Part shown: positions 8,609-36,428 of the stretch, piece after piece
How the letters are laid out: every line of letters starts with the position of its first letter
Position numbering within the stretch: the first letter of the stretch is position 1
Origin: Actinomycetota bacterium
GTDB taxonomy: Bacteria > Actinomycetota > Geothermincolia > Geothermincolales > RBG-13-55-18
Length of the DNA: 64,000 nt
Direction of reading: 5' to 3'
NCBI GenBank assembly: GCA_030019255.1
Contig: JASEFK010000006.1
Span: 154,553 to 218,552 of the forward strand
The notes under the pieces: model-generated
What the model saw: the letters and a program-made list of their open reading frames with translations, nothing else
What the model was told of the DNA's origin: nothing
Database searches by the model: none
Program-made: the position numbers and the translations under genes

Positions 8609-8612
8609 TTGC

Positions 8613-8638
8613 GGCGGAAGGGGGGGCGGCCTTCCGCC
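8613..8638 (+). terminator. GC-rich hairpin (9-bp stem GGCGGAAGG/CCTTCCGCC, 8-nt loop) 5 nt after the mutase large-subunit stop, with no U-tract
   Basis: Read directly: 8613-8621 GGCGGAAGG, loop gggggcgg, 8630-8638 CCTTCCGCC. It sits between the mutase large subunit and the radical-SAM gene. Confidence 0.35.
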
Positions 8639-8740
8639 CGGAGGGCCCGGGCGGGGCGGGCGTCCCGCGGACGGGTGCGCGGAGTTCGCGACCCGGGCGC
8701 CGTGCGGACCCCGGACCGGCATCCGGAGGTGGGGGCGGAG

Positions 8741-12763: not shown

Positions 12764-13099
12764 TTTCGACCCCCCTTGTTCGTTTTTCATACCCTTAACC
12801 GGTATCAACCCGTCCACTTCCCGGCTCCACCCCCGTTGACGCCCCGGGGTTCCGGGGCTGGCCCACGGGAGGGTATACCGGGTACCGCTCACGCATCCAT
12901 GCCCCTTTTCAGATCGCCTCTCGCCCGAAGAAGCCCCCGTCAAACCCCGGATCACCGTAACGGTAGAGGAAGCCGACTCCCGCCCTTTCGAACCGTGGCT
13001 CAACCAATGGTATCCTTTCCACTCCCCTCCGGAAAAGACCAGCAGCCGGAGTGAGGCCACCACGGTTATCGATATGAAACCGAAGCCCAGCCGACACGA

Positions 13100-13330
13100 C
13101 AATTATGCACCATGAACTTAACCTTCAATTTTCCTGATGATATCAAAGATACCAACGGGCGTAAAGAAGGGGTTCATGTTTCAAATTTTTTCTTTATTTA
13201 AGCCAGATATAAAAATTCTGTCGGCGCATCTGCGCATTAATTATTTTAGGATTGTTGTACTTTCCTACTTTACATATAGTGAACTTTCCTCCATAATTAT
13301 TCGCGCGGGCTGACGGACGACAACGGGCGG
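13100..13330. promoter_or_regulatory. AT-rich divergent promoter island between the PrpD-family gene (-) and the acyl-CoA ligase gene (+)
   Basis: About 230 bp at roughly 30% GC inside a ~67% GC genome (…caaattttttctttatttaagccagatataaaaattctg…ttattttaggattgttgtactttcctactttacatatagtgaactttcc…). The genes on each side diverge from it. Confidence 0.5.
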
Positions 13331-13480
13331 CTGCTAAATTCGTCTTGGCGACCGTGTGAGGAACTTCCTTGAGGACTTCGCCGAACCATTTTCCGCAGCC
13401 ATCGTCGCCCACTTATTCGCATTCTCGAAAGAAAGGTTCCGCGGCCCGGGGCTCAGGGTGAAGCACGGGTATGAACGGGG

Positions 13481-15031
13481 GTGACAACGATGAACGTGGG
13501 CAACTGGGCCACCAAGCGGGCGCTCTTCCCGCTCACCAGGGACAAGACGGCCTTCATCAGCGGTGACCGCTCCCTTACCTACACGGAGTTCAACCACCGT
13601 GTTAATCAAGTGGCCAACGGCTTACTGGAGGCGGGCCTCAAGAAGGGCGAGCGGGTGGCCGCCCTCTTCTTCAACAGCATAGAGTTCATGGAGGTGTACT
13701 TCGCCTGCGCCAAGGCGGGGTTCATCTTCATCCCCCTCAACTTCCGCCTCACGCCCCAGGAGCTGAACGATATATTCACCGACACCAATCCCCGGGCCTT
13801 CTTCTTCCACCCCGAGTTCGCGGGCACGGTGGGACAGCTGCGGGAACTCTACCGCGAACCGATAGAGGTTTTGGCCACCGCCGGGGAGCCAGTGCCGGAG
13901 TTCGCCTCCCCTTACGAGGAGTGGCTCTCGGAATTCGGGGAGGAGGAGCCCGCGGTCCACGAGCCCCCGGGCATGGAGGACCCCCAGATGATCATGTACA
14001 CCTCGGGAACCACCGGGCGGGCCAAGGGGGCCGTGCTCCCCCACCGCAAGACCTTCTGGAACACCTTCAACGACACCCTGGAGCTGCTCTTCGACATGGA
14101 GGCCGTATCTCTGGTCTCCATACCCCTGTTCCACTCCGGGGGCCTGAACATCATCACCATGCCCACCTTCTACATAGGGGGCACCACGATCTTCCAGAGG
14201 TTCTGGAACCCCGAGGAGGCCCTGCGCCTCATCGAGCGCCACCGGGTCACCCACTTCGGGGCCGTGCCCACCATGCTCCAGATGATGCTGGACGTTCCCG
14301 ACTTTTCCCGCTACGACCTGAGCTCCCTCAAGGGGGTGGGGGTGGGAGGAGCCCCCGCCTCCCGGGAGCTTTTGGACCGCATCCTGGAGCGGATGAAGGT
14401 GCCCCACCTCATCCAGGTCTTCGGGTGCACGGAGACCTCCATCGTCCTCTCCTGCTCCAACATGGAAAAGATCGGCAGCGCCGGCATCCCCATGTTCCAC
14501 GCCGAGGTCCGGGTGCTCAAGGAGGACGGCACGGAGGTGGTACCGGGATCCGGCGAGGTGGGGGAGATATGCACCCGGGGCCCCTACGTCATGCTCGGCT
14601 ACTGGAACCTCCCCGAGGAGACCGCCGAGGCCATGAAGGACGGGTGGTTCCACTACGGGGATCTGGCCACCGTGGACGAGGACGGGTACGTATATATCGT
14701 GGACCGCAAGAAGGACATGATCATCTCCGGGGGGGAGAACATCTACCCCGCGGAGGTGGAGAAGGTGCTCGCCGAGCACCCCAAGGTGAGGGACGTGGCG
14801 GTCATCGGCATGCCGGACGAGAAGTGGGGGGAGGTGGGCCACGCCCTGGTGCTCCTGGAGGACCCCGAGGACCCCCTGAGCCTGGAGGAGATGGAGGCCT
14901 TCTGTGCGGGGAAGCTGGCCCGTTACAAGATACCTAAAAAGATCACCTTCGTGGATGCCATCCCCCGCACCCTCACCGGCAAGATATTGAAGAAGGAACT
15001 GCGCAGGCTCTACGGCGGGGGCCGGGATTGA
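13481..15031 (+). CDS. AMP-forming acyl-CoA synthetase / ligase (ANL superfamily)
   Basis: AMP-binding P-loop MYTSGTTGRAKGAVLPH, plus the GYWN...ET, GDLAT...DEDGYVYIVDRKKDMIISGGENIYP and TLTGKILKKELR motifs. 516 aa. Confidence 0.9.
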   Translation: MTTMNVGNWATKRALFPLTRDKTAFISGDRSLTYTEFNHRVNQVANGLLEAGLKKGERVAALFFNSIEFMEVYFACAKAGFIFIPLNFRLTPQELNDIFTDTNPRAFFFHPEFAGTVGQLRELYREPIEVLATAGEPVPEFASPYEEWLSEFGEEEPAVHEPPGMEDPQMIMYTSGTTGRAKGAVLPHRKTFWNTFNDTLELLFDMEAVSLVSIPLFHSGGLNIITMPTFYIGGTTIFQRFWNPEEALRLIERHRVTHFGAVPTMLQMMLDVPDFSRYDLSSLKGVGVGGAPASRELLDRILERMKVPHLIQVFGCTETSIVLSCSNMEKIGSAGIPMFHAEVRVLKEDGTEVVPGSGEVGEICTRGPYVMLGYWNLPEETAEAMKDGWFHYGDLATVDEDGYVYIVDRKKDMIISGGENIYPAEVEKVLAEHPKVRDVAVIGMPDEKWGEVGHALVLLEDPEDPLSLEEMEAFCAGKLARYKIPKKITFVDAIPRTLTGKILKKELRRLYGGGRD

Positions 15032-16748: not shown

Positions 16749-19241
16749 ATGATGTCGGCGGTTGAGATGCGAACCATCGAGGAGATCGAAAAGAGCGGTC
16801 AGTGGTGGTGGTGGGCGGAACACAAGAGGTCGAAACGCCTGGATTACCTGCGCAAGGCGGTATGGAAAAAGGGGGCCAAGGGCTCCGGTTACCAGCCGGG
16901 AGTGAAGGTGGACCTGGAGAGGGCCGTCCTCTTCACCGAGGCCTTCAAGGCCAACGAGCACGACTCCCTGCGCATGCGCTATGCCAAGGCTCTGGCCAAC
17001 GTGTTCGACAACATCACCATCTTTATCCAGGACCACGCCCAGATCATGGGCTACCTGGGTTCCCGGCCCCACACCATCGTGTGGCACCCGGAGATCCTCT
17101 TTCTGCTCAACGAGGACCTGTATAACGACCGCACGGTCATACCTGAGCCTGTGGATGAGAACCTGAAGCTCATCCGGGAGCTCTGCGACTACTGGAACCC
17201 CCAGACGGCGGGGGCCAAGGTCTTCAACCTGGTCCCACCGGAGGAGATCGTCAAGCTCCTAACCGGGGTTATCGGTTGGGGGCTTCCCATCTCCCGCATC
17301 GGCTACGCCACCAAGCAGTGGGACTACATGTTCCGCTTGGGTCTGGAAGGCATCATAGCTGAAATAGACGAGCGTATTAAGGAGGCCGAGGAACGCATTT
17401 ACAACAAGGTGCCCGATCCCGAGGACCTCCCCTACTACGAGAAGCTTGACGTCTGGAAGTCCATGAAGGTGGTGCTGGAGGCGGTCATCCGCTGGGCACG
17501 CCGCTACAGCCGCCTGGCCAGGATCATCGCCGAGCACTTCGAGACCGACCCCCAGCGCAAAGAGGAGCTCCTGCGCATCGCCGAGGTCTGCTGGAAAGTG
17601 CCAGCCAAGCCCCCGGAGCACCTGCACGAGTCCCTGCAGTTCGACCATTTCATCCAGATTGCCTGCCGCTACGAGGCCTGCGAGGGCGCCTGGCCGGCCC
17701 GCCCCGATTACTGGCACGGTCCCTTCTACGACAAGGACGTCAACCGGGACAAGATCCTTACCCGGGAGGAGGCCCTGGATCTCACCGGAGAGTTCCTCAT
17801 CCGCTGCTACGAGGTGGGATGGTTCTGGTTGATGCTGGCCCGCGACACCCTGCAGGGCATCACCGGGACCTGGGTATGGACAATCGGCGGGGTTAACGAG
17901 GACGGGACCGACGCCTGTAACGACATGACCGACTGCCTGCTGGAAGCGGCCCGCCTGGTACGGGTGGCCAATCCCACCTTCGCCTTCCGTTACCATCCCA
18001 ACGTGAGGATGCAGACCCTGCGCCAGGTCTTCGAGTGCATCCGGCAGGGATTGGGATATCCTTCCATGCGCAACGATCCCATCCTCATCACCAACGCCAT
18101 GCATTGGCACAGGCATCCGTTGCGGGAGGCGCGGCGCTGGGTGCACCAGGCCTGCATGTCCCCCTGCCCGGATACCAAACTGGGATGCCAGCCCTTCCGC
18201 ATGGCCAACGCCACCATCATCGCCGCCAAGGCCATCGAGTATGCCCTATTCGACGGGTACGACAACGTGCTCCAGATGCAGTTCGGACCCCATACCGGGG
18301 ATGCCACAAAGTTCGAGACCTTCGAGGAGCTCTACCAGGCTTGGTACACGCAGATCAAATGGATGATGGACACCCTGGTAAAACTGACTAACGGCGGCCG
18401 CTTCATGGCCCAGTTCCTGGACCCCCGCCCCCTGCTCTCCGGACTCTACGAGCGCTGCGTGGAGCTGGGCGTGGACTCCTCCCATCCCTCGGAGCGCGGC
18501 AATTCCTGGATTACCTTCTTCGCCTGGATGGAGACCGGGGACAGCCTGGCCGCGGTGAAGAAGCTGGTTTTCGACGAGAAGAAGTACACCATGGCCCAGC
18601 TCATCGAGGCTCTCAAGGCCAACTGGGAGGGCTACGAGGAGATGCGCATGGACTTCGTGCGCGCTCCCAAGTGGGGCAACGACGACGACTACGTGGACCA
18701 GATCCACATCCGCTGCCACCGCGACGTGGCCAGGCACTCCTGGGAAATAATGGATCCCACCGGGAATCCCTGGCCTCCGCTGCCGGAGAACATCGCCGCC
18801 TACGTGACCAACGCCACCAAGGTTTGGGCGCTGCCCAACGGGAGGAGGCTTGGCGACACCCTCTACGACGGCGGGTGCTCCCCCGGGGCGGGGCTGGACA
18901 AGAAAGGTCCCACCGCCGTCCTGCGCTCGGTGGCCAAGATCGACCACATCGGGGACGTGCGAGCCACCCTGCTCAACCAGCGCCTGTCCCCCCAGCAGCT
19001 GGCCGGCGAGAAGGGCTTCCACATCTGGCACTCCTACATCAAGACCTGGGCCGAACTGGGTATCGACCACGTGCAGTTCAACATGGTGGACAACGAAACC
19101 CTGAAGGCGGCCCAGAGGGAACCGGAGAAGTATCCCGAGCTCATCGTGCGCATCGCCGGTTACAGCGCCCATTTCGTGGACCTGAACAAGAAGACCCAGG
19201 ACACCATCATCGCCCGCAACGTGCAGGAACTGGGCGTATGA
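16749..19241 (+). CDS. glycyl radical enzyme, pyruvate formate-lyase family; X-succinate-synthase-like (fumarate-adding, AssA/BssA-type) catalytic subunit, inferred
   Basis: 830 aa. C-terminal glycyl-radical motif RIAGYSAHFVDLNKKTQDTIIARNV (about 19155). Candidate thiyl Cys loop QACMSPCPDTKLG (about 18151-18165). The fumarate-adding subtype is inferred from context: two small 4-Cys subunits, ferredoxin-domain activases, and adjacent CoA-ligase, mutase and carboxylase genes. Confidence 0.8.
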   Translation: MMSAVEMRTIEEIEKSGQWWWWAEHKRSKRLDYLRKAVWKKGAKGSGYQPGVKVDLERAVLFTEAFKANEHDSLRMRYAKALANVFDNITIFIQDHAQIMGYLGSRPHTIVWHPEILFLLNEDLYNDRTVIPEPVDENLKLIRELCDYWNPQTAGAKVFNLVPPEEIVKLLTGVIGWGLPISRIGYATKQWDYMFRLGLEGIIAEIDERIKEAEERIYNKVPDPEDLPYYEKLDVWKSMKVVLEAVIRWARRYSRLARIIAEHFETDPQRKEELLRIAEVCWKVPAKPPEHLHESLQFDHFIQIACRYEACEGAWPARPDYWHGPFYDKDVNRDKILTREEALDLTGEFLIRCYEVGWFWLMLARDTLQGITGTWVWTIGGVNEDGTDACNDMTDCLLEAARLVRVANPTFAFRYHPNVRMQTLRQVFECIRQGLGYPSMRNDPILITNAMHWHRHPLREARRWVHQACMSPCPDTKLGCQPFRMANATIIAAKAIEYALFDGYDNVLQMQFGPHTGDATKFETFEELYQAWYTQIKWMMDTLVKLTNGGRFMAQFLDPRPLLSGLYERCVELGVDSSHPSERGNSWITFFAWMETGDSLAAVKKLVFDEKKYTMAQLIEALKANWEGYEEMRMDFVRAPKWGNDDDYVDQIHIRCHRDVARHSWEIMDPTGNPWPPLPENIAAYVTNATKVWALPNGRRLGDTLYDGGCSPGAGLDKKGPTAVLRSVAKIDHIGDVRATLLNQRLSPQQLAGEKGFHIWHSYIKTWAELGIDHVQFNMVDNETLKAAQREPEKYPELIVRIAGYSAHFVDLNKKTQDTIIARNVQELGV

Positions 19242-19305
19242 GGGAGATCGCGTTGAAACCGCCGGTGCTACCACCAGCGGGGTCGCTTGAAAAGGGGGTA
19301 GAGCG

Positions 19306-19605
19306 ATGAGCGACTGGGAACAGCTCCGCCAGCAGTGGCTGCAGGGGGCCATCTCCAAGGGGCGCCGTGATATGCCGGAGAAGGCCTGCGGCATTTGCAG
19401 TAACTTCCGGCAGAATTCGGCCTCCGCGGCCGGTGATGGTTTCTGCACGGCCATCAAGATGGGGGAGAAGAACAAGCCGGTCTTCGACAATACCGATGCC
19501 GCCGACTGCCCGCACTTCCGGGAGATCGACCGCGTGCGGACGGACACCAGTGAGTTCATGTGGGATCCCCAGTTCCGGCCGCAGAGGCAGATCCAGGAGA
19601 AGTAG
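19306..19605 (+). CDS. small 4-Cys subunit, candidate FeS-binding beta-like subunit of the X-succinate-synthase-type GRE
   Basis: 99 aa directly after the GRE gene, with an AAGGGGG RBS. Cys ligand pattern C28-x2-C31-x15-C47-x20-C68, comparable to the HiPIP-like small subunits of benzylsuccinate synthase. It is a paralog-like pattern match to 22139-22294. Confidence 0.55.
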   Translation: MSDWEQLRQQWLQGAISKGRRDMPEKACGICSNFRQNSASAAGDGFCTAIKMGEKNKPVFDNTDAADCPHFREIDRVRTDTSEFMWDPQFRPQRQIQEK

Positions 19606-19623
19606 GAGCAGCAACCGGAGAAG

Positions 19624-19851
19624 ATGGTCACCTGTTCCAGGTGCGGAAGGTCCGGCTCTTTAGCCGAGTTCGCCTACGTGGGGCAGGCCGTGGAGGTGGG
19701 ACCCGTTTCCCTGAGGCGGTGCCCTGCCTGCGGTGAACTCCTGGTCGTGGACGAACTGGAGCTGGAACGGGATGGATCATCATCTCCCGGTCCCTGGGGA
19801 CTGAGCGACATCTGGGGTAGAAAATTTACCTGTAAGAACGGGGAGGTGTGA
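19624..19851 (+). CDS. zinc-ribbon mini-protein, paralog 1 (CxxCG...EF-Y...CPxCG family)
   Basis: 75 aa: MVTCSRCGRSGSLAEFAYVGQAVEVGPVSLRRCPACGELLVVDELE... with two CxxC knuckles. It shares the pattern TC-x-RCG-xxG-x2-AEF-x-[YH]-...-R-x-CP-x-CG with the ORFs at 19855 and 22633. Confidence 0.55.
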   Translation: MVTCSRCGRSGSLAEFAYVGQAVEVGPVSLRRCPACGELLVVDELELERDGSSSPGPWGLSDIWGRKFTCKNGEV

Positions 19852-19854
19852 ACT

Positions 19855-20034
19855 GTGGTCAAGTGCGACAACTGCGGATACCAAGGGGTGAAGTCGGAGT
19901 TCCGTTACCTCTACAACACCACCCTGGACGCGGAGACAGCATACCGCGAATGTCCGCAATGCTACGCCTGGGTGGTGGTCAACGAGCTGCAGGAGGAAAA
20001 GGCCGAAAAGGAGCTCCAGAAGGGAAAAGCCTGA
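19855..20034 (+). CDS. zinc-ribbon mini-protein, paralog 2 (absent from the ORF track; 59 aa, GTG start)
   Basis: GTG at 19855, 4 nt after the stop of paralog 1. Translation VVKCDNCGYQGVKSEFRYLYNTTLDAETAYRECPQCYAWVVVNELQEEKAEKELQKGKA*. It has the same CxxCG...EF-Y...CPxC pattern. The alternate-frame ORF 19848..20234 is low-complexity. Confidence 0.45.
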   Translation: MVKCDNCGYQGVKSEFRYLYNTTLDAETAYRECPQCYAWVVVNELQEEKAEKELQKGKA

Positions 20035-20118
20035 TTCCCCCGTGGGAGTTCACGCTTTTTCCTGTGACGCTTTCCGGCTTCCCCGGCGTGTCGAGAGAAA
20101 CGGAAAAGGAGTCCTTTC

Positions 20119-21057
20119 ATGCCCGAGCAGGTATTAATCACCAACATCCAGCGCTATTCCATAAACGACGGGCCGGGAATCCGCACCACCGTCTTCCTCA
20201 AGGGCTGCAAGCTCAACTGCGCGTGGTGCCATAACCCGGAGTGTATCCATTTTTACCCGGAGATCTACTGGAAGCCCTCGCTCTGCCGGCAGTGCGGGAT
20301 ATGCTTCGACGCCTGCCCGAGGGGTGCCATACAGCCGCCTATTCCGGTAACGGGGGAAGAAGACAACGAGCACTATTACAAGATCGACCTATCTCTATGC
20401 GACCACTGCATGGAGTGCGTGGAGGCCTGCTTCTACGGCGCCCTGGTGAGGGTGGGAGAGCCGAAGACGGTGGAGGAGATACTCGACGAGGTGGAGAGGG
20501 ACATGCCCTTCTACCTGAACTCGGGAGGAGGCATGACGGTAACGGGAGGCGAGCCCACTGCCTTCCCCGAGTTCACCCTCGAGCTCCTGCGCAGAGCCAA
20601 GGAACGAGGGATTCACAACTGTCTGGACACCAGCGGGTTCTGCGCCTGGGAAATCCTGGATTCCCTGCGCCCCTACGTGGACATCTTCCTCTACGACATC
20701 AAGTGCATGAGCGCCAAGCTGCACGTCATGCGCACCGGGGTGAACAACTCGCCCATCCTGGCCAACCTGCGCCGACTGGTGGAGGTGGGAGCCGAGGTCA
20801 TCGTGCGCGTCCCGGTGATTCCCGGCTTCAACGATTCACCGGAGCACATGGAGAGGGTGGCCGATTTCCTCGCCGACCTGGGGTCCTCCATAGTTCGCGT
20901 GGACCTACTCCCCTTTCACAACTGGTGCCAGGACAAGTATCGCTGGCTGGGAAGGGAATGGGAATACCGGGACGTGGAAAGCCTGGCCGCGAGCGAGATA
21001 AGCGACCTGCAGGACATCCTCAAGGAACGCGGGCTGGCGACCACCATCGGAGGATGA
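20119..21057 (+). CDS. glycyl-radical enzyme activating enzyme (radical SAM) with a ferredoxin-like 2x[4Fe-4S] insertion, copy 1
   Basis: N-terminal IRTTVFLKGCKLNCAWCHNPE (the GRE-activase CxxxCxxC). Insertion with two Cx2Cx2Cx3CP motifs (LCRQCGICFDACPRG; LCDHCMECVEACFYG), typical of non-PFL activases such as BssD, CutD and GD-AE. This is followed by the SAM-binding G-rich GGGMTVTGGEP. Confidence 0.85.
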   Translation: MPEQVLITNIQRYSINDGPGIRTTVFLKGCKLNCAWCHNPECIHFYPEIYWKPSLCRQCGICFDACPRGAIQPPIPVTGEEDNEHYYKIDLSLCDHCMECVEACFYGALVRVGEPKTVEEILDEVERDMPFYLNSGGGMTVTGGEPTAFPEFTLELLRRAKERGIHNCLDTSGFCAWEILDSLRPYVDIFLYDIKCMSAKLHVMRTGVNNSPILANLRRLVEVGAEVIVRVPVIPGFNDSPEHMERVADFLADLGSSIVRVDLLPFHNWCQDKYRWLGREWEYRDVESLAASEISDLQDILKERGLATTIGG

Positions 21058-21066
21058 GGCGGTAAG

Positions 21067-21996
21067 ATGGGAAGCGGCGAAACCTCGGGCTACGTCAACG
21101 ACATCCAGTTCTATTCCCTGAGCGACGGGCCGGGGATACGTACCACCGTCTTCCTCAAGGGATGCCTACTCAACTGCCGCTGGTGCCACAACCCTGAAGG
21201 CCACCGCCGATTCCCAGAGGTCCTCCCCTATCGCAACAACTGCACCGGGTGCGGTAAATGCCTGGAGGTGTGCCCCTCCGGGGCCATCGAGATGGAAGGC
21301 CCCTGCCTGCCCCGTATCCGCCGTGAACGCTGCATCGACTGCTTTCGCTGCGCCGAGGCCTGCCCGGAACAGGCCCTTGTGGTGTGGGGAAAGCTGATGA
21401 CCGTGGACCAGGTATTGGCGGAGGTGGAGAAGGACAAGCCCTTCTACAAGCATTCCGGCGGAGGGCTCACGGTTTCCGGCGGAGAACCCCTGGCCCAGCC
21501 GGAATTCACTCATGATCTCCTGGCGGAGGCCAGGGCAAGGGGAATGAACACCGCGCTGGATACGTGCGGGTTCGCCCCCTGGGAAGTGCTGGAAAAGGTG
21601 CTGCGCGTCGCCGACCACGTGCTCCTGGACCTCAAGCACATGGATTCCGCGGCGCACCGCGCCTACTGTGGGGCTCCCAACGATCTCATCCTTGCCAACG
21701 CCCGGCGCCTGGCGGAAGAGGCCCGCGAGCTGCGCTTCCGGATCCCCCTCATCCCGGGCTTCAACGACGGGGAGGAAAACCTCGCCCGCACGGCGGATTT
21801 CATTCGCGGGTTGTGCCGCAATGGGAAGGAATGCGAGGTGGACATCCTGCCTTATCACCCTTACGCCGGAGCCAAGTACCGCATCTTCGGACTGGAATAT
21901 CCCTTCCCGCGGGGAGAGGGATACCCCGAGGAAAAGCTGTGCGGAATTGTGAAGATCTTCACCTCCCGGCGTCTCACGGTCACCGTGGGAGGTTGA
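21067..21996 (+). CDS. glycyl-radical enzyme activating enzyme with a ferredoxin-like insertion, copy 2 (tandem paralog)
   Basis: IRTTVFLKGCLLNCRWCHNPE; ferredoxin motifs CTGCGKCLEVCPSG and CIDCFRCAEACPEQ; GGGLTVSGGEP. Collinear with copy 1. Confidence 0.85.
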   Translation: MGSGETSGYVNDIQFYSLSDGPGIRTTVFLKGCLLNCRWCHNPEGHRRFPEVLPYRNNCTGCGKCLEVCPSGAIEMEGPCLPRIRRERCIDCFRCAEACPEQALVVWGKLMTVDQVLAEVEKDKPFYKHSGGGLTVSGGEPLAQPEFTHDLLAEARARGMNTALDTCGFAPWEVLEKVLRVADHVLLDLKHMDSAAHRAYCGAPNDLILANARRLAEEARELRFRIPLIPGFNDGEENLARTADFIRGLCRNGKECEVDILPYHPYAGAKYRIFGLEYPFPRGEGYPEEKLCGIVKIFTSRRLTVTVGG

Positions 21997-28283: not shown

Positions 28284-29180
28284 CTAGCCCCGCTCCGGGA
28301 CCCACGCCCGGCGGATGACCATGGCCCCGGCCAGGATGATGAGCAGACCTCCTGCCAAATCCTGCCATCCCATGCTCTCCCCCAGGAACAGCAGGCCATA
28401 GAGCATAGCGCTGGCCGGCTCAAGGTAGGCGATGATCCCCACGTGTTGAGCCTTCACCTTCTTCACCGCGAACACGTACAGCAGGCCCGCCAGCCCGGTG
28501 TGCACTAGGCCCAGCACGATCAGGGACGCCCAACCCCGCGGGGAGACCGTGAAATCGCGGAAAGCGCAGAAAGGCAGGAGCAAGGATGCGTTGACCGCCG
28601 TCTGGTAAAAGGTCACGGTGAGGGTCGGGGTGTCCTCGCGAAGGTACTTGAGGATGAAGAGGAGCAGGGCATAAGATACCGCCGAGCACAGGGCATAGGT
28701 TATTCCCGCCGCCGGAGAACCGGTCCCGGCCTTGGACCTGGTGAGCGAGATCAGCCCCATGCCCGCCAGGGCCAGGGCCAGGGCTAGCAGGGTCGTTCCC
28801 TCCAACCTCTCCCTGAGCACCAGGGGGGCCAGCAGCGCCACCAGCACCGGGGCGAGGTAGGTTATAAACTCCGCATCCCCGATGGGCAGGTTGTTCAAGG
28901 CCTTGAGGAAGAGCACCCAGTGCAGGGTGAGCAGCGCTCCGCTCGTCAGGAGGAGCACCGGGTGCCCGCCGAGCCGAAAATCCCCCGTCCTCCCGCTCAA
29001 GGCCATCACCGCCGCCAGGAAGGCCGCGCTGATCATGGAGCGGATGAAGACCACGAAATGTTCGCTGCCCGGAAGGTCTATCCACCGCAGGAAGACACCC
29101 ACCGACCCCCAGAGAGCCGCAGCACCGGCGATAAGGAGATATTCGAGACCCGCCGCTCCCCTTCCCTCCCTCGCTTCCAA
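28284..29180 (-). CDS. EamA/DMT-superfamily transporter
   Basis: 298 aa with ten predicted TM helices in two EamA half-domains (AALWGSVGVFLRW..., ...LGLVHTGLAGLLYVFAVKK...). Confidence 0.75.
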   Translation of the reverse strand: MEAREGRGAAGLEYLLIAGAAALWGSVGVFLRWIDLPGSEHFVVFIRSMISAAFLAAVMALSGRTGDFRLGGHPVLLLTSGALLTLHWVLFLKALNNLPIGDAEFITYLAPVLVALLAPLVLRERLEGTTLLALALALAGMGLISLTRSKAGTGSPAAGITYALCSAVSYALLLFILKYLREDTPTLTVTFYQTAVNASLLLPFCAFRDFTVSPRGWASLIVLGLVHTGLAGLLYVFAVKKVKAQHVGIIAYLEPASAMLYGLLFLGESMGWQDLAGGLLIILAGAMVIRRAWVPERG

Positions 29181-29344: not shown

Positions 29345-30496
29345 TCAGGCTGCCCTTATGGAGATGGATAACCGTCCTTCTTCGTTGAGTTCCCACTCGG
29401 CGATGGTGCTCTCGTTTCCGGAGGTGATCTCGTAGAAAGCCTGGGTCATGCCCACCATGAAAAGCTCCAGGCAGGCGTTGTGGAGCGTCATTTCCAGCTT
29501 CTTCCTATCCCCTTCCAGGGAAACCAGGTAACCCAGGCCCCTGCGGGCCATGTGCATCTTGAGCATGCCGGTTATGGTGGAGACCAGCTCCCGGTCCACC
29601 CTTTCGTGTATGTAGCGCCTGTGCGCCTCCACCACCGCCCTTCGAAGGGCCGGTCCGTGTTCCTCGGCCAAGTCATCGAACACCGCCTCCAGGGCCAGGG
29701 GGCCGAAGACGGCCACCCTCCTTCCGGTATCCGAGGCGGTGATGATCCCCCTCTCCAGGTCCCAATGGTACCCGGAGATGAGGGAGGGAACACCGCAGGA
29801 AGGGCACTTTTCGTGTTCCACGTCCCCGGCTACGAACTCGTACCTTTTTCTGCGCCTCAGCTTGCCCCCGAGCTCTACGGGGTGTTCGGAGGGAAAGAGG
29901 TGCAGCCTGAAGACGTCTTCTTCCATCTCCTCCCCCTCTATCCACATGTCCAAGCCCTCGAAGGCTTCGACGGTCCCCAGGATGTCCGCCTTCCAGAGGG
30001 GAACGGAATAAGGATACCTCATCACCAGCCGGCGCCATGGATAAGGCTCATCCTCCGCCCAGTCCACGGATACCTCCCCGTACCCGAAAACGCGGGCCAC
30101 GCCGGAGACCCTTTCCACCAGGTCCTCCCTTATCCGGACCACGAAATCGGCCATGGCCCGGCTGAGCGGAGAGTCCTTCGCCGTGGGTCCCGCATCGCCC
30201 AGAAGAAGGGTGTTCCGGATCTCGAAGGGAAAGCTCCTCTCGATGAACCTCCTGGTCTCCCTGCGCCGGCTCTCCACAACCATCGGCTCTATGCTCCGTC
30301 CCAGAATCCCCTCGATTCCCCGGAAGACGTTGTCTATGATGTTGGACTCGTAGATCACCATGCGGTTGTGAGGAGACTGGGCCAGGCTGATCACCCCGCC
30401 GCTTTCCCACCGCAGCTCGTTTCCCATCAGGGCGGGAACCCCGCACTGCTCACACCTTTCAATAGGTTGTGCCATTCCGCCCGTGCCCCCCTTCAC
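29345..30496 (-). CDS. uncharacterised protein, paralog A of a tandem pair; internally duplicated CxxCG(VP)...HNRM...IIDN module
   Basis: 383 aa. N-terminal half: CEQCGVPALMGNELRWESGGVISLAQSPHNRMVIYESNIIDNVFRGIEGILG. C-terminal half: CPSCGVPSLISGYHWDLERGIITASDTGRRVAVFGPLALEAVFDDLAEEHG. About 45% identical to the protein at 30840-31976. A likelier start is M8 (ATG about 30475), which has an AAGGGGGG RBS. Confidence 0.6.
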   Translation of the reverse strand: MKGGTGGMAQPIERCEQCGVPALMGNELRWESGGVISLAQSPHNRMVIYESNIIDNVFRGIEGILGRSIEPMVVESRRRETRRFIERSFPFEIRNTLLLGDAGPTAKDSPLSRAMADFVVRIREDLVERVSGVARVFGYGEVSVDWAEDEPYPWRRLVMRYPYSVPLWKADILGTVEAFEGLDMWIEGEEMEEDVFRLHLFPSEHPVELGGKLRRRKRYEFVAGDVEHEKCPSCGVPSLISGYHWDLERGIITASDTGRRVAVFGPLALEAVFDDLAEEHGPALRRAVVEAHRRYIHERVDRELVSTITGMLKMHMARRGLGYLVSLEGDRKKLEMTLHNACLELFMVGMTQAFYEITSGNESTIAEWELNEEGRLSISIRAA

Positions 30497-30839
30497 CAGG
30501 CTTTAATAACTTTGATAAGCATGTTCGGGTCTCCATCCTCCGAATACTCCCTTTCGTGGGAAAAATCCTCCACGCCGAGCGCGATCTCGAACCTACTTAT
30601 CTTCCTGTTTTGATTAATGACCGGTTTGCCAGCTTTACCTTGCTTAACGCTCTTCCCTTTCTTTACTCCCTCAAGCTTGCTTTCCGGGTGAAAGAGGGTT
30701 TGCATCTCTAGGGATTTATTCGCCTTCTCGCAGCCCGACCTTGAGTAAATGTCGGAAAGTCTTCCGGCGGATCGACCGGCAGCTCCTCGCGGGCCGCGCC
30801 CGGGGAGACATCCCTCAACCCGATATCTGAAGGATACCC

Positions 30840-31976
30840 CTAAAGAGTGACCTCTATCTCTAGGTCACCGTCGTCGCGCAGGCTCCATCTGACCTCGGAA
30901 TTCTCCCTGCCCATGGCGATCTCGTAAAGGGCCTGCGCCATGCCCACGTTCAGATAGGGCATACAGGCGTTATGGAGGGTCACCGAGAGGTGCTCTGTGT
31001 CCGCTTCGAATCTGGCCACGTAGCCCAGCCCCCTGAGGGCAGCCATGTGCATGAAATCGGTGCCCCTCTTCCTCCAGTTCTCACCCGCGACGCGCGATTT
31101 CACGTACCTCCTCTGGGCTTCCACGGCGGCTGCGGGCACCTCATCGCCCAGCTCCGCTTCCAGGTCCTGCAGGACGGCATCCACGGCATGGGGACCGAAG
31201 AGGGCCATCCTCCTCCCGCTATCGGTATCGGTTATGATTCCCCTGTCCAGGTCCCAGTTCAAGCGCTCAACTTCACGAGGCACGCCGCATCCCGGACAAA
31301 GGTCATAGTGGAGTTCACCAGGCTTGAAAGGGTAGCGCTTTCTCGCCAGGCGTTCCCGGAGAGCCACGGGGTGTTCTCCGGGCTGGACCTCGAAAAGATA
31401 GACTCCCTCCTCAAGTTCACGGTAGGTGACGCAGTGGTCCTTGCCCTCGAAGGCCTCCACGGAAGCCAGGCACTCCGCGGCGAAAAAGAGCACCGAATAG
31501 GGATTGTGGACTACGGTGGAGCGCCAGGGATGCACGTCACCCTCCTCCCACAGGGGACCCGGCCTGGAGTCCCCGTAACCGTATACCCTGCCTACCTCGA
31601 AGACCCTGCCGGCCAGAGCCTTTCCCAGCGGCCCGCGAACCGCCCGCGCCAACCCTTTCAATCCCGGCATCCCGCTGAGGCGCTCGTTGAGTGTCACCAA
31701 GGGCCGCCGTATCCAGGCGGGGAATACCCCCTCGATGTACTTCCTCACCTCCCGGCGCCGGCTCTCGATGACGATGTGCTCGATGGAAACGCCGATGAGC
31801 TCCTCGATGCCCCGGAAGAGATTGTCGATGATGTTGGACTCGTAAAGAACCATGCGGTTGTGGGGTGCCCTGGCCAGGTGAATGACCCCGTCGCTTCCCC
31901 ACCGCAGTTCCCTGCCAATGAAGAGCGGCACACCGCAGGAAGGGCATTTTTTCCTGAGTGAAGATCCTCCCGGCAT
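30840..31976 (-). CDS. uncharacterised protein, paralog B of the tandem pair (same two-module architecture)
   Basis: 378 aa. CPSCGVPLFIGRELRWGSDGVIHLARAPHNRMVLYESNIIDNLFRGIEELIG and CPGCGVPREVERLNWDLDRGIITDTDSGRRMALFGPHAVDAVLQDLEAELG. Collinear with paralog A. Confidence 0.6.
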   Translation of the reverse strand: MPGGSSLRKKCPSCGVPLFIGRELRWGSDGVIHLARAPHNRMVLYESNIIDNLFRGIEELIGVSIEHIVIESRRREVRKYIEGVFPAWIRRPLVTLNERLSGMPGLKGLARAVRGPLGKALAGRVFEVGRVYGYGDSRPGPLWEEGDVHPWRSTVVHNPYSVLFFAAECLASVEAFEGKDHCVTYRELEEGVYLFEVQPGEHPVALRERLARKRYPFKPGELHYDLCPGCGVPREVERLNWDLDRGIITDTDSGRRMALFGPHAVDAVLQDLEAELGDEVPAAAVEAQRRYVKSRVAGENWRKRGTDFMHMAALRGLGYVARFEADTEHLSVTLHNACMPYLNVGMAQALYEIAMGRENSEVRWSLRDDGDLEIEVTL

Positions 31977-32305
31977 TTCCGGTTCCTCCCCCGGCTCTTT
32001 CCCCGGTGGGGTTATAAATATGCGCCATTCATTCCCTGCGCCTCTCCTCCTAAGAGGCGCCCGGTCCTTTTTACGCCGGGTTTAAGTTTATACCAAGTAA
32101 ACTTGTTGTCAACCACGCAGAGGCAGCCATCATCTTTACGGATTCCCGTGCGGTTTACCATGAACCTGCTGAAGGTGATGGAGATTTTCGTTGGGCGCAT
32201 GACCTGAGGAGGGCGGTAATGATCATATTCCGATGAGATCACCACGAGGTCTCGGCAGGCGATCTTCCCCTTCTCCTCCACGGCCCTGGTAGCGTTCCCC
32301 GCCGC

Positions 32306-32956
32306 CTAAGGGCCGCCGTAAGGCTCTTCCGATCCGGTTTCGTGTATCATCCATCTCTTTCCATCGTTGCGCAACCCCAGGCGGAACCGACTGCCCCCGC
32401 CGTCACGCAATAGTTCCACGTCCACGTAGGCCCTGGAGCCGGTCAGGTGCGAAAGATGCGTCTTCCAGCCCGTGACCGAATCCATCCGCTCCTTCATGAG
32501 GCTCAGGTATCCCTCGAAATCCCCTTCCTCCTTAAACCTAGAGGTGACGTGAAGCATCTCCCATGCCTCGCCCAGTCGGCCTTCGTTCAGGGTCAGTAGG
32601 TAATGTTCAACCGTCTCGACCGGCGCATGCGCTGCTTGGACGGCCAGAAAGGAGAAGGCGGCCAGGGCCAGCACGGCGAAGGCGGCGGCCATCATAATCC
32701 GGGCCAGCAAGCTCCAGGTTCTTCCGCCCATCCCCCCGGAAGGGGGACCGGAAAAGGCGGAAATGCCTTCAGAACCGACCTCTGGAATCGGGCCCGACGC
32801 TTCCTCTACCGCAGGCTCATGCGGCCCGCCTCCATCGGGAGATATTCCTTGCGTCCTCCCATGCTTTTCCTGATCGGCTCCCTTGCCCGGGCGATCGTCG
32901 TCCTTCCTCCTTCCATTCACCATTACCTTCGCTCCTTGTAGGTCTTGAATGTCCAC
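32306..32956 (-). CDS. membrane-anchored hypothetical protein
   Basis: Single TM LLARIMMAAAFAVLALAAFSFLAV, then a ~120-aa soluble domain. The N-terminal 75 aa are low-complexity (G/P/D-rich), so the start may be internal, for example at MGGRTWS. Confidence 0.4.
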   Translation of the reverse strand: MDIQDLQGAKVMVNGRRKDDDRPGKGADQEKHGRTQGISPDGGGPHEPAVEEASGPIPEVGSEGISAFSGPPSGGMGGRTWSLLARIMMAAAFAVLALAAFSFLAVQAAHAPVETVEHYLLTLNEGRLGEAWEMLHVTSRFKEEGDFEGYLSLMKERMDSVTGWKTHLSHLTGSRAYVDVELLRDGGGSRFRLGLRNDGKRWMIHETGSEEPYGGP

Positions 32957-34747: not shown

Positions 34748-35812
34748 CTACTGCAGGGCCACCATCTCGTGCAGGGTGGTACCCGTCTCCTCGACGGAAC
34801 GCCCATCATGGTTCACGCGGAGGGTAAAATCCGACTCGAAGCGGAACCATCCCGGGCGCATGAAACGGTTCACCAACCACTTGACGGCCGGGTTCATGAT
34901 CACCGGGTTGAGCTCGGAGAGGAAATCGTTGGCGTCTATGATGCGCCTCACGTCCAGTCGCAGGAAGACCCGGTCGGGGATTTCCATTTCCAGGAAAGTG
35001 GGATAGGTGCGGTTGGCTGCAGGATGGAAGTCCGGCGGCCCCTCCCTCAGCCGCATCTCCCCGGAGCTGAGAATCACCTCGCCTCCCCGGGCCAGCATGA
35101 GCGGCCTGGAGGCCTTCCCCCCGAAGCGTTTCCGCGTCTTCACGTAGGCGTAGAGCAGGGTGTGTTCCGGGGTGTACAGCCTTCCCCAGTACCAGAAGGA
35201 GAGGATGCGCCGCATGTCCGCGGTGACCACATTGTGGTCATGGTAGCCTATCCCCCGGGCCCGCAGGGTGGTGCCCCCGTAACGCACTGTTCCCTCCACT
35301 TCCGCCCGCGGCGCGGGGACCACCCAGGCGAAGTAACCGCGGTCCCCGTACCTGGTGAGACCCTTTCCGGGTTTCCATCCCGGGACCTGGCTGCGGAAAG
35401 TGAGGTCCGCTTCCATGCCCTCCTCGGCGATGTGCAGGTAGTGCACGGGCAAGTTGCCGCCCTCGGGAAACTCGGCGTAGCAGTGGTTGTCCCCCACCCG
35501 CACGTCACACTTCTCGGTGGAGGCCTTCAGCTGGGAGTGCGGGAACTTCTTGACCACGGAGAGCTTCTCTCCGTCCGGCTTATAGACATGCAGTTCTATG
35601 CCCGGCTTACGGGACATAAGTTCCGAGGCCTGGAGGAAACCAACCACCACGTGTCCGTCATCCAGGCGGGCGTCGAAATACCACCATTCCCCGTAGTAGC
35701 GGCTGCTCCTTGCTTCGGGATGCAGGGCGTTCTCTTCGGGAGTCAGAGGAATTATTTCCCCGTCCTTCTCCCCGGGACCTAACCACTCGTCGACAACCGG
35801 CTCTATCCTCAT
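34748..35812 (-). CDS. CrtC/AttH-like (hydroxyneurosporene-synthase-type lipocalin-like hydratase) family protein, tentative
   Basis: 355 aa from the ATG at 35812, with a GGGAGG RBS 5 nt upstream. Trp/Tyr-rich beta-rich sequence (YYGEWWYFDARLDDGHVVVGFL...GYFAWVV...). The family assignment rests on overall resemblance only. Confidence 0.4.
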   Translation of the reverse strand: MRIEPVVDEWLGPGEKDGEIIPLTPEENALHPEARSSRYYGEWWYFDARLDDGHVVVGFLQASELMSRKPGIELHVYKPDGEKLSVVKKFPHSQLKASTEKCDVRVGDNHCYAEFPEGGNLPVHYLHIAEEGMEADLTFRSQVPGWKPGKGLTRYGDRGYFAWVVPAPRAEVEGTVRYGGTTLRARGIGYHDHNVVTADMRRILSFWYWGRLYTPEHTLLYAYVKTRKRFGGKASRPLMLARGGEVILSSGEMRLREGPPDFHPAANRTYPTFLEMEIPDRVFLRLDVRRIIDANDFLSELNPVIMNPAVKWLVNRFMRPGWFRFESDFTLRVNHDGRSVEETGTTLHEMVALQ

Positions 35813-36428
35813 CTCTACCTCCCTCTCCGAGACGCCTCGTGCCGTCACTCCGCCCTTTATGGACGGAAACCGTAAATGAAAACCTTCGGCCCACGGATCC
35901 ACCCGATTTCCCGCTTGCCTCTACCCACGATCCGCCAGGAGAGCCCTGGAACGACAGGGCAGGGACGCCTCGTCTCCTGGTACCATCCATTATAGACAAG
36001 ATCCCTTGTTCTGTTTTATGCTTATCCCGGGCTCCCCGTGAGTTCAAGGCATCTTCCAATCCCCCGAAGCTCGCCTTGATGCGGAAGCCTGGTGTGGATG
36101 ACACTGGTGGTTCCAACCCGGCCCCTCACCCGGACGCCCCTTCATTTCCCTCGACACAGGCCGGGCACAGGGATGTTCGCCATGTTCCGGGACCGGGGCC
36201 ATCCCTCCCCGGAAGCACTCACTTGCCCCCCGAGGCGCCGCGGGGCCCTGGCGGCCAGGCAAGGTGAGCCCCTGCCGGCTCCCTAAGTCGTTCCTCCTGG
36301 AAAAACCGGGGAAAGGGTGATCACATGGGAAGAGAGCGGCACCGGGCCTCTTGCCGCCGCGCGCGGGATATGGCGCCGCAAGGTGGTCGAGCGTCATCTT
36401 CCCGGTCAGAACCGGGGCCGGGAGGGGA

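What the first reader, a model, noticed from the sequence alone, without database searches (positions are those of the whole stretch)
29345..31976. Tandem paralogous pair of uncharacterised ~380-aa proteins, each built from two CxxCG(VP)...HNRM...IIDN modules
Both proteins are on the minus strand with a 343-bp spacer. They share an N-terminal module, CxxCGVP...LRW.S.GVI.LA..PHNRMV.YESNIIDN.FRGIE, and a C-terminal repeat of the same fold, CP.CGVP......W.L.RGIIT..D.GRR.A.FGP.A..AV..DL. This shows an ancient internal duplication followed by a gene duplication. I cannot assign a family. The conserved Cys pairs and invariant His/Asn suggest metal or cofactor binding. The location is three genes from the GRE operon, and the recurring CxxCG theme suggests a link to it.
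Basis: seen in the sequence. Interest (0 to 1): 0.55.

Follow-up and report, generated by a model that had tools for sequence, protein, structure and literature searches.

The report
Duplicated sensor-fold proteins, Geothermincolia-specific family
These two neighbouring genes are old copies of an unnamed protein family found only in one class of uncultured Actinomycetota; each protein is a doubled small-molecule-sensor fold with four invariant cysteines, and it has no real link to the nearby glycyl-radical enzyme genes.

Summary
Two minus-strand genes, B (30840-31976, 378 aa) and A (29345-30496, probably starting at 30475, 376 aa), are 47% identical (E 1e-108). Each is a tandem duplication of a whole ~170-aa domain (N-half vs C-half hhalign E 1.3e-28). 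No Pfam, NCBIfam, PADLOC, PHROGs or PDB sequence match exists. A confident AlphaFold2 model (pLDDT 88.8), and a model of one repeat, place each repeat in the fold of the aromatic-effector sensor domains of MopR, PoxR and DmpR (XylR_N+V4R; Foldseek E 3e-6, TM about 0.6). H-NOX, YslB, BcsD and Bet3 follow. Each repeat starts with a CxxCG knuckle. All four Cys are present in all 135 full-length members examined, whereas the His of 'HNRM' is not conserved. The family has at least 481 clusters at 50% identity, every named member is 'hypothetical', and it was seen only in Candidatus Geothermincolia. Single MAGs carry up to at least 13 copies in at least 10 conserved paralog lineages. The GRE link is local synteny only: at least five unrelated genes intervene, about 65 of 76 family loci have no GRE nearby, and the GRE shows no fumarate-adding match. 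Best reading: stand-alone, covalently fused pseudo-dimeric ligand-binding proteins stapled by a Cys4 metal site. The ligand and partners are unknown.

The parts
30840..31976 (-). Gene B: 378-aa family member, ATG start with a GGGGGAGGA ribosome-binding site 7 nt upstream; soluble, pI 6.2
   Evidence: AlphaFold2 model pLDDT 88.8, pTM 0.88
29345..30496 (-). Gene A: paralog of B (47% identity). The ORF runs from GTG 30496 (383 aa); the likely real start is ATG 30475 (376 aa). pI 5.3
31353..31976 (-). B, N-terminal repeat (residues 1-208): CxxCG knuckle plus a XylR_N/V4R-like fold, with an extra helical hairpin insert of about 32 residues (roughly residues 87-118) that is the most paralog-specific segment
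   Evidence: hhalign N-half vs C-half E 1.3e-28; secondary structure; entropy analysis
30843..31352 (-). B, C-terminal repeat (residues 209-378): the minimal repeat, a CPxCG knuckle plus a MopR/PoxR/DmpR-like sensor fold
   Evidence: single-repeat model pLDDT 81.4; Foldseek PDB top 10 are MopR, PoxR and DmpR, E 3.4e-6 to 3e-4, TMq 0.58-0.62
31935..31946 (-). B knuckle 1, Cys11-Pro-Ser-Cys14
31287..31298 (-). B knuckle 2, Cys227-Pro-Gly-Cys230 (invariant across the whole family)
30443..30454 (-). A knuckle 1, Cys-Glu-Gln-Cys (residues 15-18 in the 383-aa numbering)
29795..29806 (-). A knuckle 2, Cys-Pro-Ser-Cys (residues 231-234 in the 383-aa numbering)
30497..30839 (-). Intergenic spacer between B and A. 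It has no significant remnant of a family gene and no Rfam match. In Ca. Solincola tengchongensis a third paralog lies between the B and A orthologues
32085..32112 (-). Sigma-70-like promoter match (TTGACA-16-TAAACT, 10 of 12) about 110 bp upstream of B. The number of such sites in the region is no more than chance gives
28284..29180 (-). EamA-family transporter gene, 164 bp downstream of A on the same strand. It is the only neighbour consistently adjacent to this locus type (16 loci including the window)

Best explanation
A and B are two anciently diverged members of a large, unnamed protein family that has been seen only in the actinobacterial class Candidatus Geothermincolia. Each protein is a soluble, acidic polypeptide of about 42 kDa made of two copies of one domain. 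Each copy starts with a CPxCG-type metal knuckle, followed by the two-layer alpha/beta fold of the effector-binding domains of the aromatic-responsive activators MopR, PoxR, DmpR and XylR (XylR_N+V4R; the same fold group as H-NOX and TRAPP Bet3). Those domains work as dimers and hold a small hydrophobic ligand in an internal cavity, so the tandem duplication most likely gives a covalently fused pseudo-dimer with two pockets (inferred). The four invariant cysteines are the only conserved metal ligands. They most likely bind one structural metal ion, probably zinc, contributed half by each repeat, in place of the canonical V4R zinc site, which is absent (inferred). There is no DNA-binding, ATPase, kinase or catalytic domain. 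The proteins therefore most likely act as stand-alone binders of small molecules, either as sensors that signal through protein partners or as carriers or buffers that hand ligand to, for example, the adjacent EamA exporter (inferred). The many conserved paralog lineages would then be specialised for different ligands or partners. The proteins are not functionally tied to the glycyl-radical enzyme cluster. Shown here: the paralogy, the internal duplication, the fold, cysteine invariance, lineage restriction and expansion, and the lack of GRE association. Inferred: ligand binding, the shared Cys4 site, and the mode of output.
For: Paralogy at 47% identity, E 1e-108. Whole-domain internal duplication, hhalign probability 99.8%, E 1.3e-28. 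Confident models: pLDDT 88.8 and pTM 0.88 for full-length B, pLDDT 81.4 for the C-repeat. Foldseek against the PDB: for the full-length model the best hits are H-NOX, PoxR, YslB, Bet3 and BcsD, each covering about half the query. For the single repeat the top 10 are MopR, PoxR and DmpR sensor domains, E 3.4e-6 to 3e-4, TMq 0.58-0.62, 175-181 aligned columns, which is the whole repeat. Both repeats align co-linearly and in the same register with a XylR_N+V4R profile, although not significantly (pairwise E about 0.02). Literature: V4R/TRAPPC3-fold domains dimerise through their N-terminal helices, hold hydrophobic ligands in cavities, and carry structural Zn sites whose position varies (PMC10933270). 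MopR has a structural Zn site (C155, C181, C189) about 10 A from a hydrophobic phenol pocket (PMC9556785). All 135 full-length members keep all four Cys, and no other Cys or His is conserved family-wide. The knuckle pLDDT is 93-96 in the full-length model but 73-79 in the isolated repeat, which fits the knuckle packing against the other repeat. The proteins have pI 5.3 and 6.2 and no hydrophobic run longer than 6 residues. No other domain is found, and the one apparent fusion is a read-through artefact. There are at least 10 paralog lineages, each well conserved internally, and the lineage-specific positions cluster at residues 87-131 and 295-311. Stand-alone XylR_N+V4R proteins do exist, for example P0288, named 'predicted hydrocarbon binding protein'. 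EamA lies immediately downstream in 16 loci, including the window.
Confidence: 0.55

Rival explanations
1. Assembly or scaffold protein without a small-molecule ligand. Like Bet3/TRAPP subunits or BcsD, the fold would serve as a protein-protein interaction module, and the paralogs would form hetero-oligomeric assemblies.
For: Bet3/TPC6 and BcsD are among the fold matches. The many co-encoded paralogs in tandem arrays would suit hetero-oligomers. The helices alpha1 and alpha2 of each repeat are strongly conserved.
Against: The best fold matches by a clear margin are ligand-binding sensor domains. Even TRAPPC3 binds palmitate in its cavity (PMC10933270). No partner gene is consistently co-encoded across the locus types.
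Confidence: 0.15
2. Redox protein. The two CPxCG knuckles would form a rubredoxin-like Fe(Cys)4 centre or an Fe-S cluster, and the proteins would act as electron carriers or redox sensors in these strict anaerobes.
For: CPxCG is the classical rubredoxin knuckle, and there are weak sub-threshold Pfam matches to rubredoxin-like and zinc-ribbon models. Four Cys are strictly conserved. The genomic setting is anaerobic (GRE, radical SAM enzymes).
Against: All rubredoxin and zinc-ribbon matches are below the gathering thresholds. The knuckles are 216 residues apart and embedded in a sensor fold of about 170 residues per repeat. The metal sites known in this fold group are structural zinc sites (PMC9556785, PMC10933270). 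No redox partner is conserved nearby.
Confidence: 0.12
3. Enzyme. The family would be a catalytic member of the fold group, with the conserved Arg, Asn and Glu residues forming an active site.
For: R41/R256, N336 and E275 are at least 90% conserved.
Against: Very few polar residues are invariant across the family. The conserved ones are duplicated symmetrically in both repeats, as expected for structural positions, and the corresponding Arg of the 'RM' strand is also present in the non-catalytic XylR sensor domain. No enzyme family matches.
Confidence: 0.06
4. One reading: accessory proteins of the neighbouring glycyl-radical enzyme, for example substrate delivery or sensing for a hydrocarbon-activating GRE.
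For: The same relative arrangement (family array, EamA, PycAB, BioY, BirA, then activase or GRE) recurs in L005, L010, L011, L014, L015 and L034. The sensor fold is that of aromatic or hydrocarbon effector binders.
Against: Housekeeping genes on mixed strands lie between the pair and the GRE cluster. L001 and L002 have the same block without a GRE within 10 kb. About 65 of the 76 family loci from reference genomes lie elsewhere, with no GRE or activase within 10 kb. The GRE is dehydratase/eliminase-like and matches no fumarate-adding family among its hits.
Confidence: 0.05

Closest known systems
Effector-sensing 'A' domains of the sigma-54 activators MopR, PoxR, DmpR and XylR (Pfam XylR_N PF06505 + V4R PF02830)
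   Same: Each repeat has the same fold over its whole length (Foldseek E 3.4e-6, TMq about 0.6, 175-181 aligned columns). The N-terminal 'G-x-I ... R-M-x-L ... L...LG' segment aligns in the same register. Both carry a structural metal site and have a dimeric organisation.
   Different: Sequence identity is only 12-16% and no Pfam match is found. The canonical V4R zinc ligands are absent and replaced by an N-terminal CxxCG knuckle. Two domains are fused in one chain instead of forming a homodimer. There is no AAA+ or HTH output domain. The family is confined to Geothermincolia and multiplied to at least 13 copies per genome.
Stand-alone V4R / 'predicted hydrocarbon binding' proteins (COG1719-type; for example P0288 found here) and BchJ-type V4R proteins
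   Same: They are stand-alone proteins of the same fold without an output domain, and are presumed small-molecule binders.
   Different: They have a single domain of about 200-240 aa that Pfam recognises. Our family has a double domain, is invisible to Pfam, and has a different arrangement of cysteines.
H-NOX haem NO/O2 sensors
   Same: They belong to the same fold group (probability 1.0, E about 1e-3). They are stand-alone sensors that act through partner kinases or cyclases encoded nearby. One locus type of our family flanks a histidine kinase and response regulator pair.
   Different: No His is invariant across the family that could ligate haem. TM scores are lower (0.41-0.45) and rmsd values higher than for MopR and PoxR.
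TRAPP subunits Bet3/TRAPPC3/TPC6 and archaeal TRAPPC3-like proteins
   Same: They have the same two-layer fold, dimerise through their N-terminal helices, have a hydrophobic cavity, and carry a Cys4 Zn site whose position varies in the archaeal forms (PMC10933270; fold hits).
   Different: They are eukaryotic or Asgard vesicle-tethering subunits made of single domains that assemble non-covalently.
YslB (DUF2507) of Bacillus subtilis and BcsD of cellulose-secretion systems
   Same: They are fold matches at E about 1e-3 and TM 0.5-0.58.
   Different: They are single domains of about 140-150 aa with no cysteine knuckles. YslB has no known function, and BcsD is a filament-forming subunit.

Membership tests
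XylR_N + V4R sensor domain (MopR/PoxR/DmpR/XylR type) | Match to Pfam PF06505 or PF02830 at or above the gathering score | tested here: not met
   No hit for A or B even at E <= 1, and none for any of 103 family members at E <= 10. The positive control, the XylR A domain, scores 108 and 42 bits.
XylR_N + V4R sensor domain (MopR/PoxR/DmpR/XylR type) | Three-dimensional fold of the sensor domain over its full length | tested here: met
   For the single-repeat model, the top 10 PDB hits are MopR, PoxR and DmpR: E 3.4e-6 to 3e-4, TMq 0.58-0.62, 175-181 aligned columns. For the full-length model, PoxR gives TMt 0.55.
XylR_N + V4R sensor domain (MopR/PoxR/DmpR/XylR type) | Statistically supported profile-profile sequence homology | tested here: inconclusive
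   hhalign of each repeat against a 27-sequence XylR_N+V4R alignment gives pairwise E 0.018-0.023 and probability 2-3%, but the alignment is co-linear and in the same register for both repeats. A single-repeat profile against PDB sequences does not retrieve MopR, PoxR or DmpR.
XylR_N + V4R sensor domain (MopR/PoxR/DmpR/XylR type) | Canonical structural zinc site in the V4R part (C155, C181, C189 in MopR; invariant C149 and C175 in the XylR alignment) | tested here: not met
   No Cys or His is conserved in the C-terminal part of either repeat; only the N-terminal CxxC pairs are conserved. In the permissive alignment, the XylR Cys positions fall opposite non-ligand residues.
XylR_N + V4R sensor domain (MopR/PoxR/DmpR/XylR type) | Hydrophobic effector pocket that binds an aromatic ligand | not testable with these tools
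The only indirect hint is that paralog-specific positions cluster at residues 87-131 and 295-311.
XylR_N + V4R sensor domain (MopR/PoxR/DmpR/XylR type) | Fusion to a sigma-54 AAA+ ATPase and an HTH output domain | tested here: not met
   The two repeats fill the whole 376-378 aa. No other domain is found, and no genuine fusions occur among the representatives.
H-NOX | Conserved proximal His that ligates haem | tested here: not met
   No His is invariant or at least 90% conserved in the 103-sequence alignment. There is no Pfam HNOB hit.
Rubredoxin / zinc-ribbon domains | Two CxxC knuckles within one small domain of about 30-55 residues, and a match to a family model | tested here: not met
   Only sub-threshold single-knuckle matches are found: zf-Mss51 at 17-20 bits against a cut-off of 27, and RUBY_RBDX at 11-15 bits against 26.5. 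The knuckles are 216 residues apart, one per repeat.
Cys4 metal-binding site (generic) | Four strictly conserved cysteines | tested here: met
   135 of 135 full-length members have C11, C14, C227 and C230; only fragments lack them. Whether the four come together in space could not be tested.
GRE accessory / GRE-operon component | Conserved co-occurrence and co-orientation with GRE or activase genes | tested here: not met
   GRE or activase genes lie within 10 kb in only 8 of 76 family loci from reference genomes (L005, L010, L011, L014, L015, L034, L023, L029) and in neither of two further relatives (L001, L002). Where present they are separated from the family genes by Pyc, BioY and BirA genes on mixed strands.

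The most novel reading that the evidence does not exclude
The family is a new kind of stand-alone sensor. It would be a single-chain pseudo-dimer of V4R-type pockets whose two halves are clamped by an inter-repeat rubredoxin-like M(Cys)4 centre. Ligand binding, or the redox or metal state of that centre, would open or close the clamp and so control partner proteins such as the flanking GAF histidine kinase or the EamA exporter. The 10 or more paralog lineages would then form a Geothermincolia-specific chemosensory repertoire that replaces conventional one-component regulators.
Probability: 0.15. Interest if true: 0.6.

Novelty: new variant of a known kind. Interest (0 to 1): 0.4.

Why it matters
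The finding defines a sizeable protein family with no name in any library searched: at least 481 clusters at 50% identity, and up to at least 13 copies per genome. It gives that family a concrete, testable structural identity. The architecture has not been described for the V4R/H-NOX/Bet3 fold group: a covalent tandem of two sensor domains, with the usual zinc site replaced by one CxxCG knuckle per repeat. Candidatus Geothermincolia are uncultured anaerobes of hot springs and the deep subsurface. A lineage-specific family expanded this far is probably central to how they sense or handle small, possibly hydrophobic or aromatic, molecules. The result also removes a misleading association with the glycyl-radical enzyme cluster, which would otherwise invite a wrong annotation as a GRE accessory.

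Tried and rejected
(1) Sequence-family searches found nothing significant: Pfam on A and B and on 103 family members, NCBIfam, PADLOC, PHROGs, and PDB sequence searches with one protein, with the full-length profile and with the single-repeat profile. Only generic zinc-knuckle noise appeared (zf-Mss51, L37e, S14).
(3) Model coordinates are not exposed to scripts, so Cys-Cys distances and cavities could not be measured.
(4) A search of the 5.8-billion-protein set with the single-repeat profile found only shorter members of the same family, with no one-repeat ancestors or bridging relatives in other taxa.
(5) The one long representative, P0122 (549 aa), is a low-complexity read-through and not a fusion.
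(6) I tested whether the 343-bp spacer is a decayed third paralog; there is no significant similarity.
(7) Rfam finds no family in the window. Promoter and terminator consensus hits are at chance level.
(8) The window ORFs at 32306-32956 and 32012-32281 are not family fragments.
(9) GRE-accessory, anti-phage defence and nucleic-acid-binding roles were rejected on context, library searches and acidic pI.
Full report

Yes. The minus strand carries two ORFs, 30840-31976 (B, 378 aa, ATG) and 29345-30496 (A, 383 aa from GTG), 343 bp apart. They align end to end at 47% identity, E 1e-108. B has a GGGGGAGGA ribosome-binding site 7 nt before its ATG. For A, the ATG at 30475 behind GAAGGGGGG gives MAQPIERCEQCGVP, which is in register with the homologues, so A is more likely 376 aa.

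**2. The internal duplication is real and covers the whole protein.**

BLASTP already links the C-module of A to the N-module of B at E 4e-6. On a 103-sequence alignment reaching down to 23% identity (A2), an hhalign comparison of the N-half with the C-half gives probability 99.8%, E 1.3e-28, over 156 columns (residues 5-199 vs 221-378). So each half is one complete repeat, and the N-repeat carries an extra helical insert of about 32 residues. The positions conserved family-wide come in equivalent pairs: C11/C227, C14/C230, P17/P233, W26/W241, G30/G246, R41/R256 and G62/G277. The His of 'HNRM' is not conserved, and His202 is invariant only among close relatives.

**3. No sequence family matches.**

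Pfam, NCBIfam, PADLOC and PHROGs give no significant match for A or B. They give only sub-threshold single-knuckle matches such as zf-Mss51 and rubredoxin-like models. PDB sequence searches with one protein, with the full-length profile and with a single-repeat profile find nothing significant.

**4. The fold.**

- AlphaFold2 on a 59-sequence alignment gives a confident model of B (pLDDT 88.8, pTM 0.88).
- Foldseek against the PDB with this model returns H-NOX domains, the PoxR phenol-sensing domain (TM 0.55 normalised to the target, 176 columns), YslB, Bet3 and BcsD. Each covers about half of the query.
- A separate model of the C-terminal repeat alone (pLDDT 81.4) sharpens the result. Its top 10 hits are all aromatic-effector sensor domains of MopR, PoxR and DmpR, with E 3.4e-6 to 3e-4, TMq 0.58-0.62 and 175-181 aligned columns, which is the whole repeat. 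H-NOX, BcsD, YslB and Bet3/TPC6 follow.
- For a sequence-level test I took the XylR A domain from plasmid pWW0, collected 27 genuine XylR_N+V4R proteins and ran hhalign against each repeat. The result is not significant (pairwise E about 0.02, probability 2-3%). Both repeats nevertheless align co-linearly and in the same register, starting with W..G.I...RM.l....L...LG against F..eG.IWL.e.RMLL....LRkEL..LG. The V4R zinc-ligand positions of XylR fall opposite non-ligand residues.
- Conclusion: each repeat works like, and is probably a very distant relative of, the XylR_N+V4R sensor domain. Membership by sequence is not met, and the canonical zinc site is absent.

**5. What the literature says about this fold.**

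V4R/TRAPPC3-fold domains have two layers, four helices on a four-stranded sheet. They dimerise through the two N-terminal helices and enclose cavities that bind hydrophobic ligands (phenols in PoxR, palmitate in TRAPPC3). They often carry a structural Zn site whose position is not conserved (PMC10933270). In MopR the zinc site (C155, C181, C189) lies about 10 A from a hydrophobic phenol pocket anchored by H106 and W134, and its role is structural (PMC9556785). A tandem duplication of such a domain is therefore most simply read as a covalently fused pseudo-dimer.

**6. The cysteines.**

In 149 family ORFs from 79 loci plus the window, all 135 full-length members have all four Cys. Only contig-end fragments and split genes lack a pair. 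No other potential metal ligand is conserved within a repeat. Each repeat thus offers only half of a tetrahedral site. The most economical reading is one M(Cys)4 site shared between the two repeats, with pairing between chains as the alternative. The only structural hint available is that the C-repeat knuckle has pLDDT 93-94 in the full-length model but 73-79 when modelled alone. Coordinates could not be read, so this step is inference.

**7. Distribution and expansion.**

- A word-indexed search finds 318 relatives. A full HMM scan of 1.84 billion cluster representatives finds 481 at E <= 1e-3 and 159 at E <= 1e-30, almost all 340-380 aa.
- Every name attached to a member is 'hypothetical protein', and every organism name is Actinomycetota, Geothermincolales or Anoxymicrobiaceae. 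This holds even for the most distant representatives shown.
- A scan of GTDB species representatives returns 76 loci in 32 MAGs: Ca. Solincola, Ca. Geothermincola, Anoxymicrobiaceae and unclassified Actinomycetota. The named genera and family belong to class Ca. Geothermincolia. Two odd labels are probably binning or naming errors (see section 10).
- Copies recovered per MAG are lower bounds and reach 13, 9 and 8. The closest relative of the window is Ca. Solincola tengchongensis, at about 80% identity for both genes.
- The copies fall into at least 10 lineages at 60% identity or more. Each is well conserved internally (within-group entropy about 0.3-1.0 bit, against 1.7-3.2 bits overall). Lineage-specific positions cluster at residues 87-131 and 295-311, between helix alpha2 and the GYG/RGLG motif.
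- A and B belong to different lineages, each with positional orthologues, so the duplication long predates these species.

**8. Genomic context and the GRE hypothesis.**

The window order is: PrpD-like (-), AMP-ligase (+), GRE 16749-19241 (+), activases 20119-21057 and 21067-21996 (+), BirA (-), BioY, PycB and PycA (+), EamA (-), A (-), B (-), a 216-aa ORF (-), and an M20 peptidase (+).

- The block of family array (2-6 copies), EamA, PycA, PycB, BioY and BirA recurs in about 16 loci, including the window.
- In six of the reference-genome loci with this block, activase or GRE genes follow BirA, as in the window. L023 and L029 also have a GRE or activase gene nearby. In L001 and L002 there is none within 10 kb.
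- About 65 of the 76 reference-genome loci lie elsewhere with no GRE or activase gene within 10 kb.
- A second conserved locus type places family members on both sides of a GAF histidine kinase and a LuxR-type response regulator, next to a B12-binding radical SAM protein, PASTA kinases and a geranylgeranyl-reductase-like gene. This may also be plain synteny.
- The GRE belongs to the PFL2-3 subfamily. Its best scores are to sulfopropanediol dehydratase, hydroxyproline dehydratase and choline lyase models, all far below their cut-offs, and no fumarate-adding family appears among its hits.
- Conclusion: the proposed GRE link is not supported. EamA, 164 bp downstream of A on the same strand, is the only consistent neighbour of this locus type.

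**9. Other properties.**

Both proteins are acidic (pI 6.2 and 5.3) and have no hydrophobic run longer than 6 residues. They are therefore cytoplasmic and unlikely to bind nucleic acids. No genuine domain fusions exist. Rfam finds nothing in the window. One sigma-70-like site lies about 110 bp upstream of B, but the number of such sites is at chance level.

**10. Verdict.**

- The genes encode two old paralogs of an undescribed, Geothermincolia-specific, highly expanded family. Each member is a tandem pair of MopR/PoxR-like sensor-fold domains, and each domain is headed by a CxxCG knuckle.
- The most likely mechanism is a stand-alone, pseudo-dimeric small-molecule binder stapled by a Cys4 (probably zinc) site, which acts through protein partners or as a carrier. 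Confidence is about 0.55. The structural identity is well supported, while ligand binding, the shared metal site and the output are inferred.
- Rivals are a ligand-free scaffold (0.15), a rubredoxin-like redox protein (0.12), an enzyme (0.06) and a GRE accessory (0.05).
- Novelty: a new variant of a known kind. Interest is moderate at 0.4. This is a solid new family with an undescribed architecture, but its function is unknown and it bears on no long-standing question.

Noticed in passing
window 16749-21996 (+), with 11402-15031 upstream: The glycyl-radical enzyme (830 aa) is followed by two separate activase genes. It scores far below every NCBIfam equivalog cut-off; its best matches are the sulfopropanediol dehydratase, hydroxyproline dehydratase and CutC models. 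Its substrate is therefore unknown. A PrpD/MmgE-like gene and an AMP-dependent ligase lie just upstream.
   Followed up: partly
L002 12651-13736 (same in L003); L081 5504-6636; L082 269-922 and 2371-2994: Split or degenerate family copies recur in different assemblies: a 99-107-aa N-terminal piece (knuckle plus first helices) and a 207-217-aa piece (C-repeat), next to intact 375-aa copies. The V4R-like part of the N-repeat is missing. They could be pseudogenes or single-repeat derivatives.
   Followed up: partly
L057, L063, L065, L068, L069, L073, L075, L076 (for example L075 9989-16798): A second conserved locus type has this order: PASTA Ser/Thr kinases, geranylgeranyl-reductase-like gene, B12-binding radical SAM gene, one or two family members, MazG-like gene (-), a 355-aa membrane protein, a GAF/HisKA_3 histidine kinase, a LuxR-type response regulator, and a very remote family member on the opposite strand. 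Family members thus flank a two-component system, which recalls stand-alone H-NOX sensors.
   Followed up: partly
L004 6452-7612; window 30497-30839: Ca. Solincola tengchongensis has a third paralog between the B and A orthologues, whereas the window and L005 have only a spacer there. One frame of the window spacer just upstream of A (FEIALGVEDFSHEREYSEDGDPNMLI) faintly resembles the family's C-terminal tail, but not significantly (E about 0.5).
   Followed up: yes
L037 (labelled uncultured Thermoplasmata archaeon) and L028 (labelled Acidimicrobium ferrooxidans): These are the only two family loci whose organism label names a lineage outside Geothermincolia. Both share a neighbouring-gene cluster with Geothermincolia and unclassified Actinomycetota loci (L012, L031, L035, L036), so the labels probably reflect mis-binning or mis-naming rather than horizontal transfer.
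   Followed up: partly
window 34748-35902 (-) and 32306-32956 (-): Two further ORFs have no Pfam or NCBIfam family. The 384-aa ORF is conserved (74-89% identity) next to the M20 peptidase in L002, L004, L005, L006 and L034. The 216-aa ORF directly upstream of B is conserved only in the closest relatives (L004, L005, and weakly in L015).
   Followed up: partly
window 32012-32281 (-): This 89-aa ORF upstream of B overlaps the promoter-like site at 32085-32112 and has no homologue in L001-L003. It is probably not a gene.
   Followed up: partly
window 8609-10840 (+): A 743-aa protein combines a radical SAM domain with a PDZ domain, which is an unusual pairing. It was not examined further.
   Followed up: no
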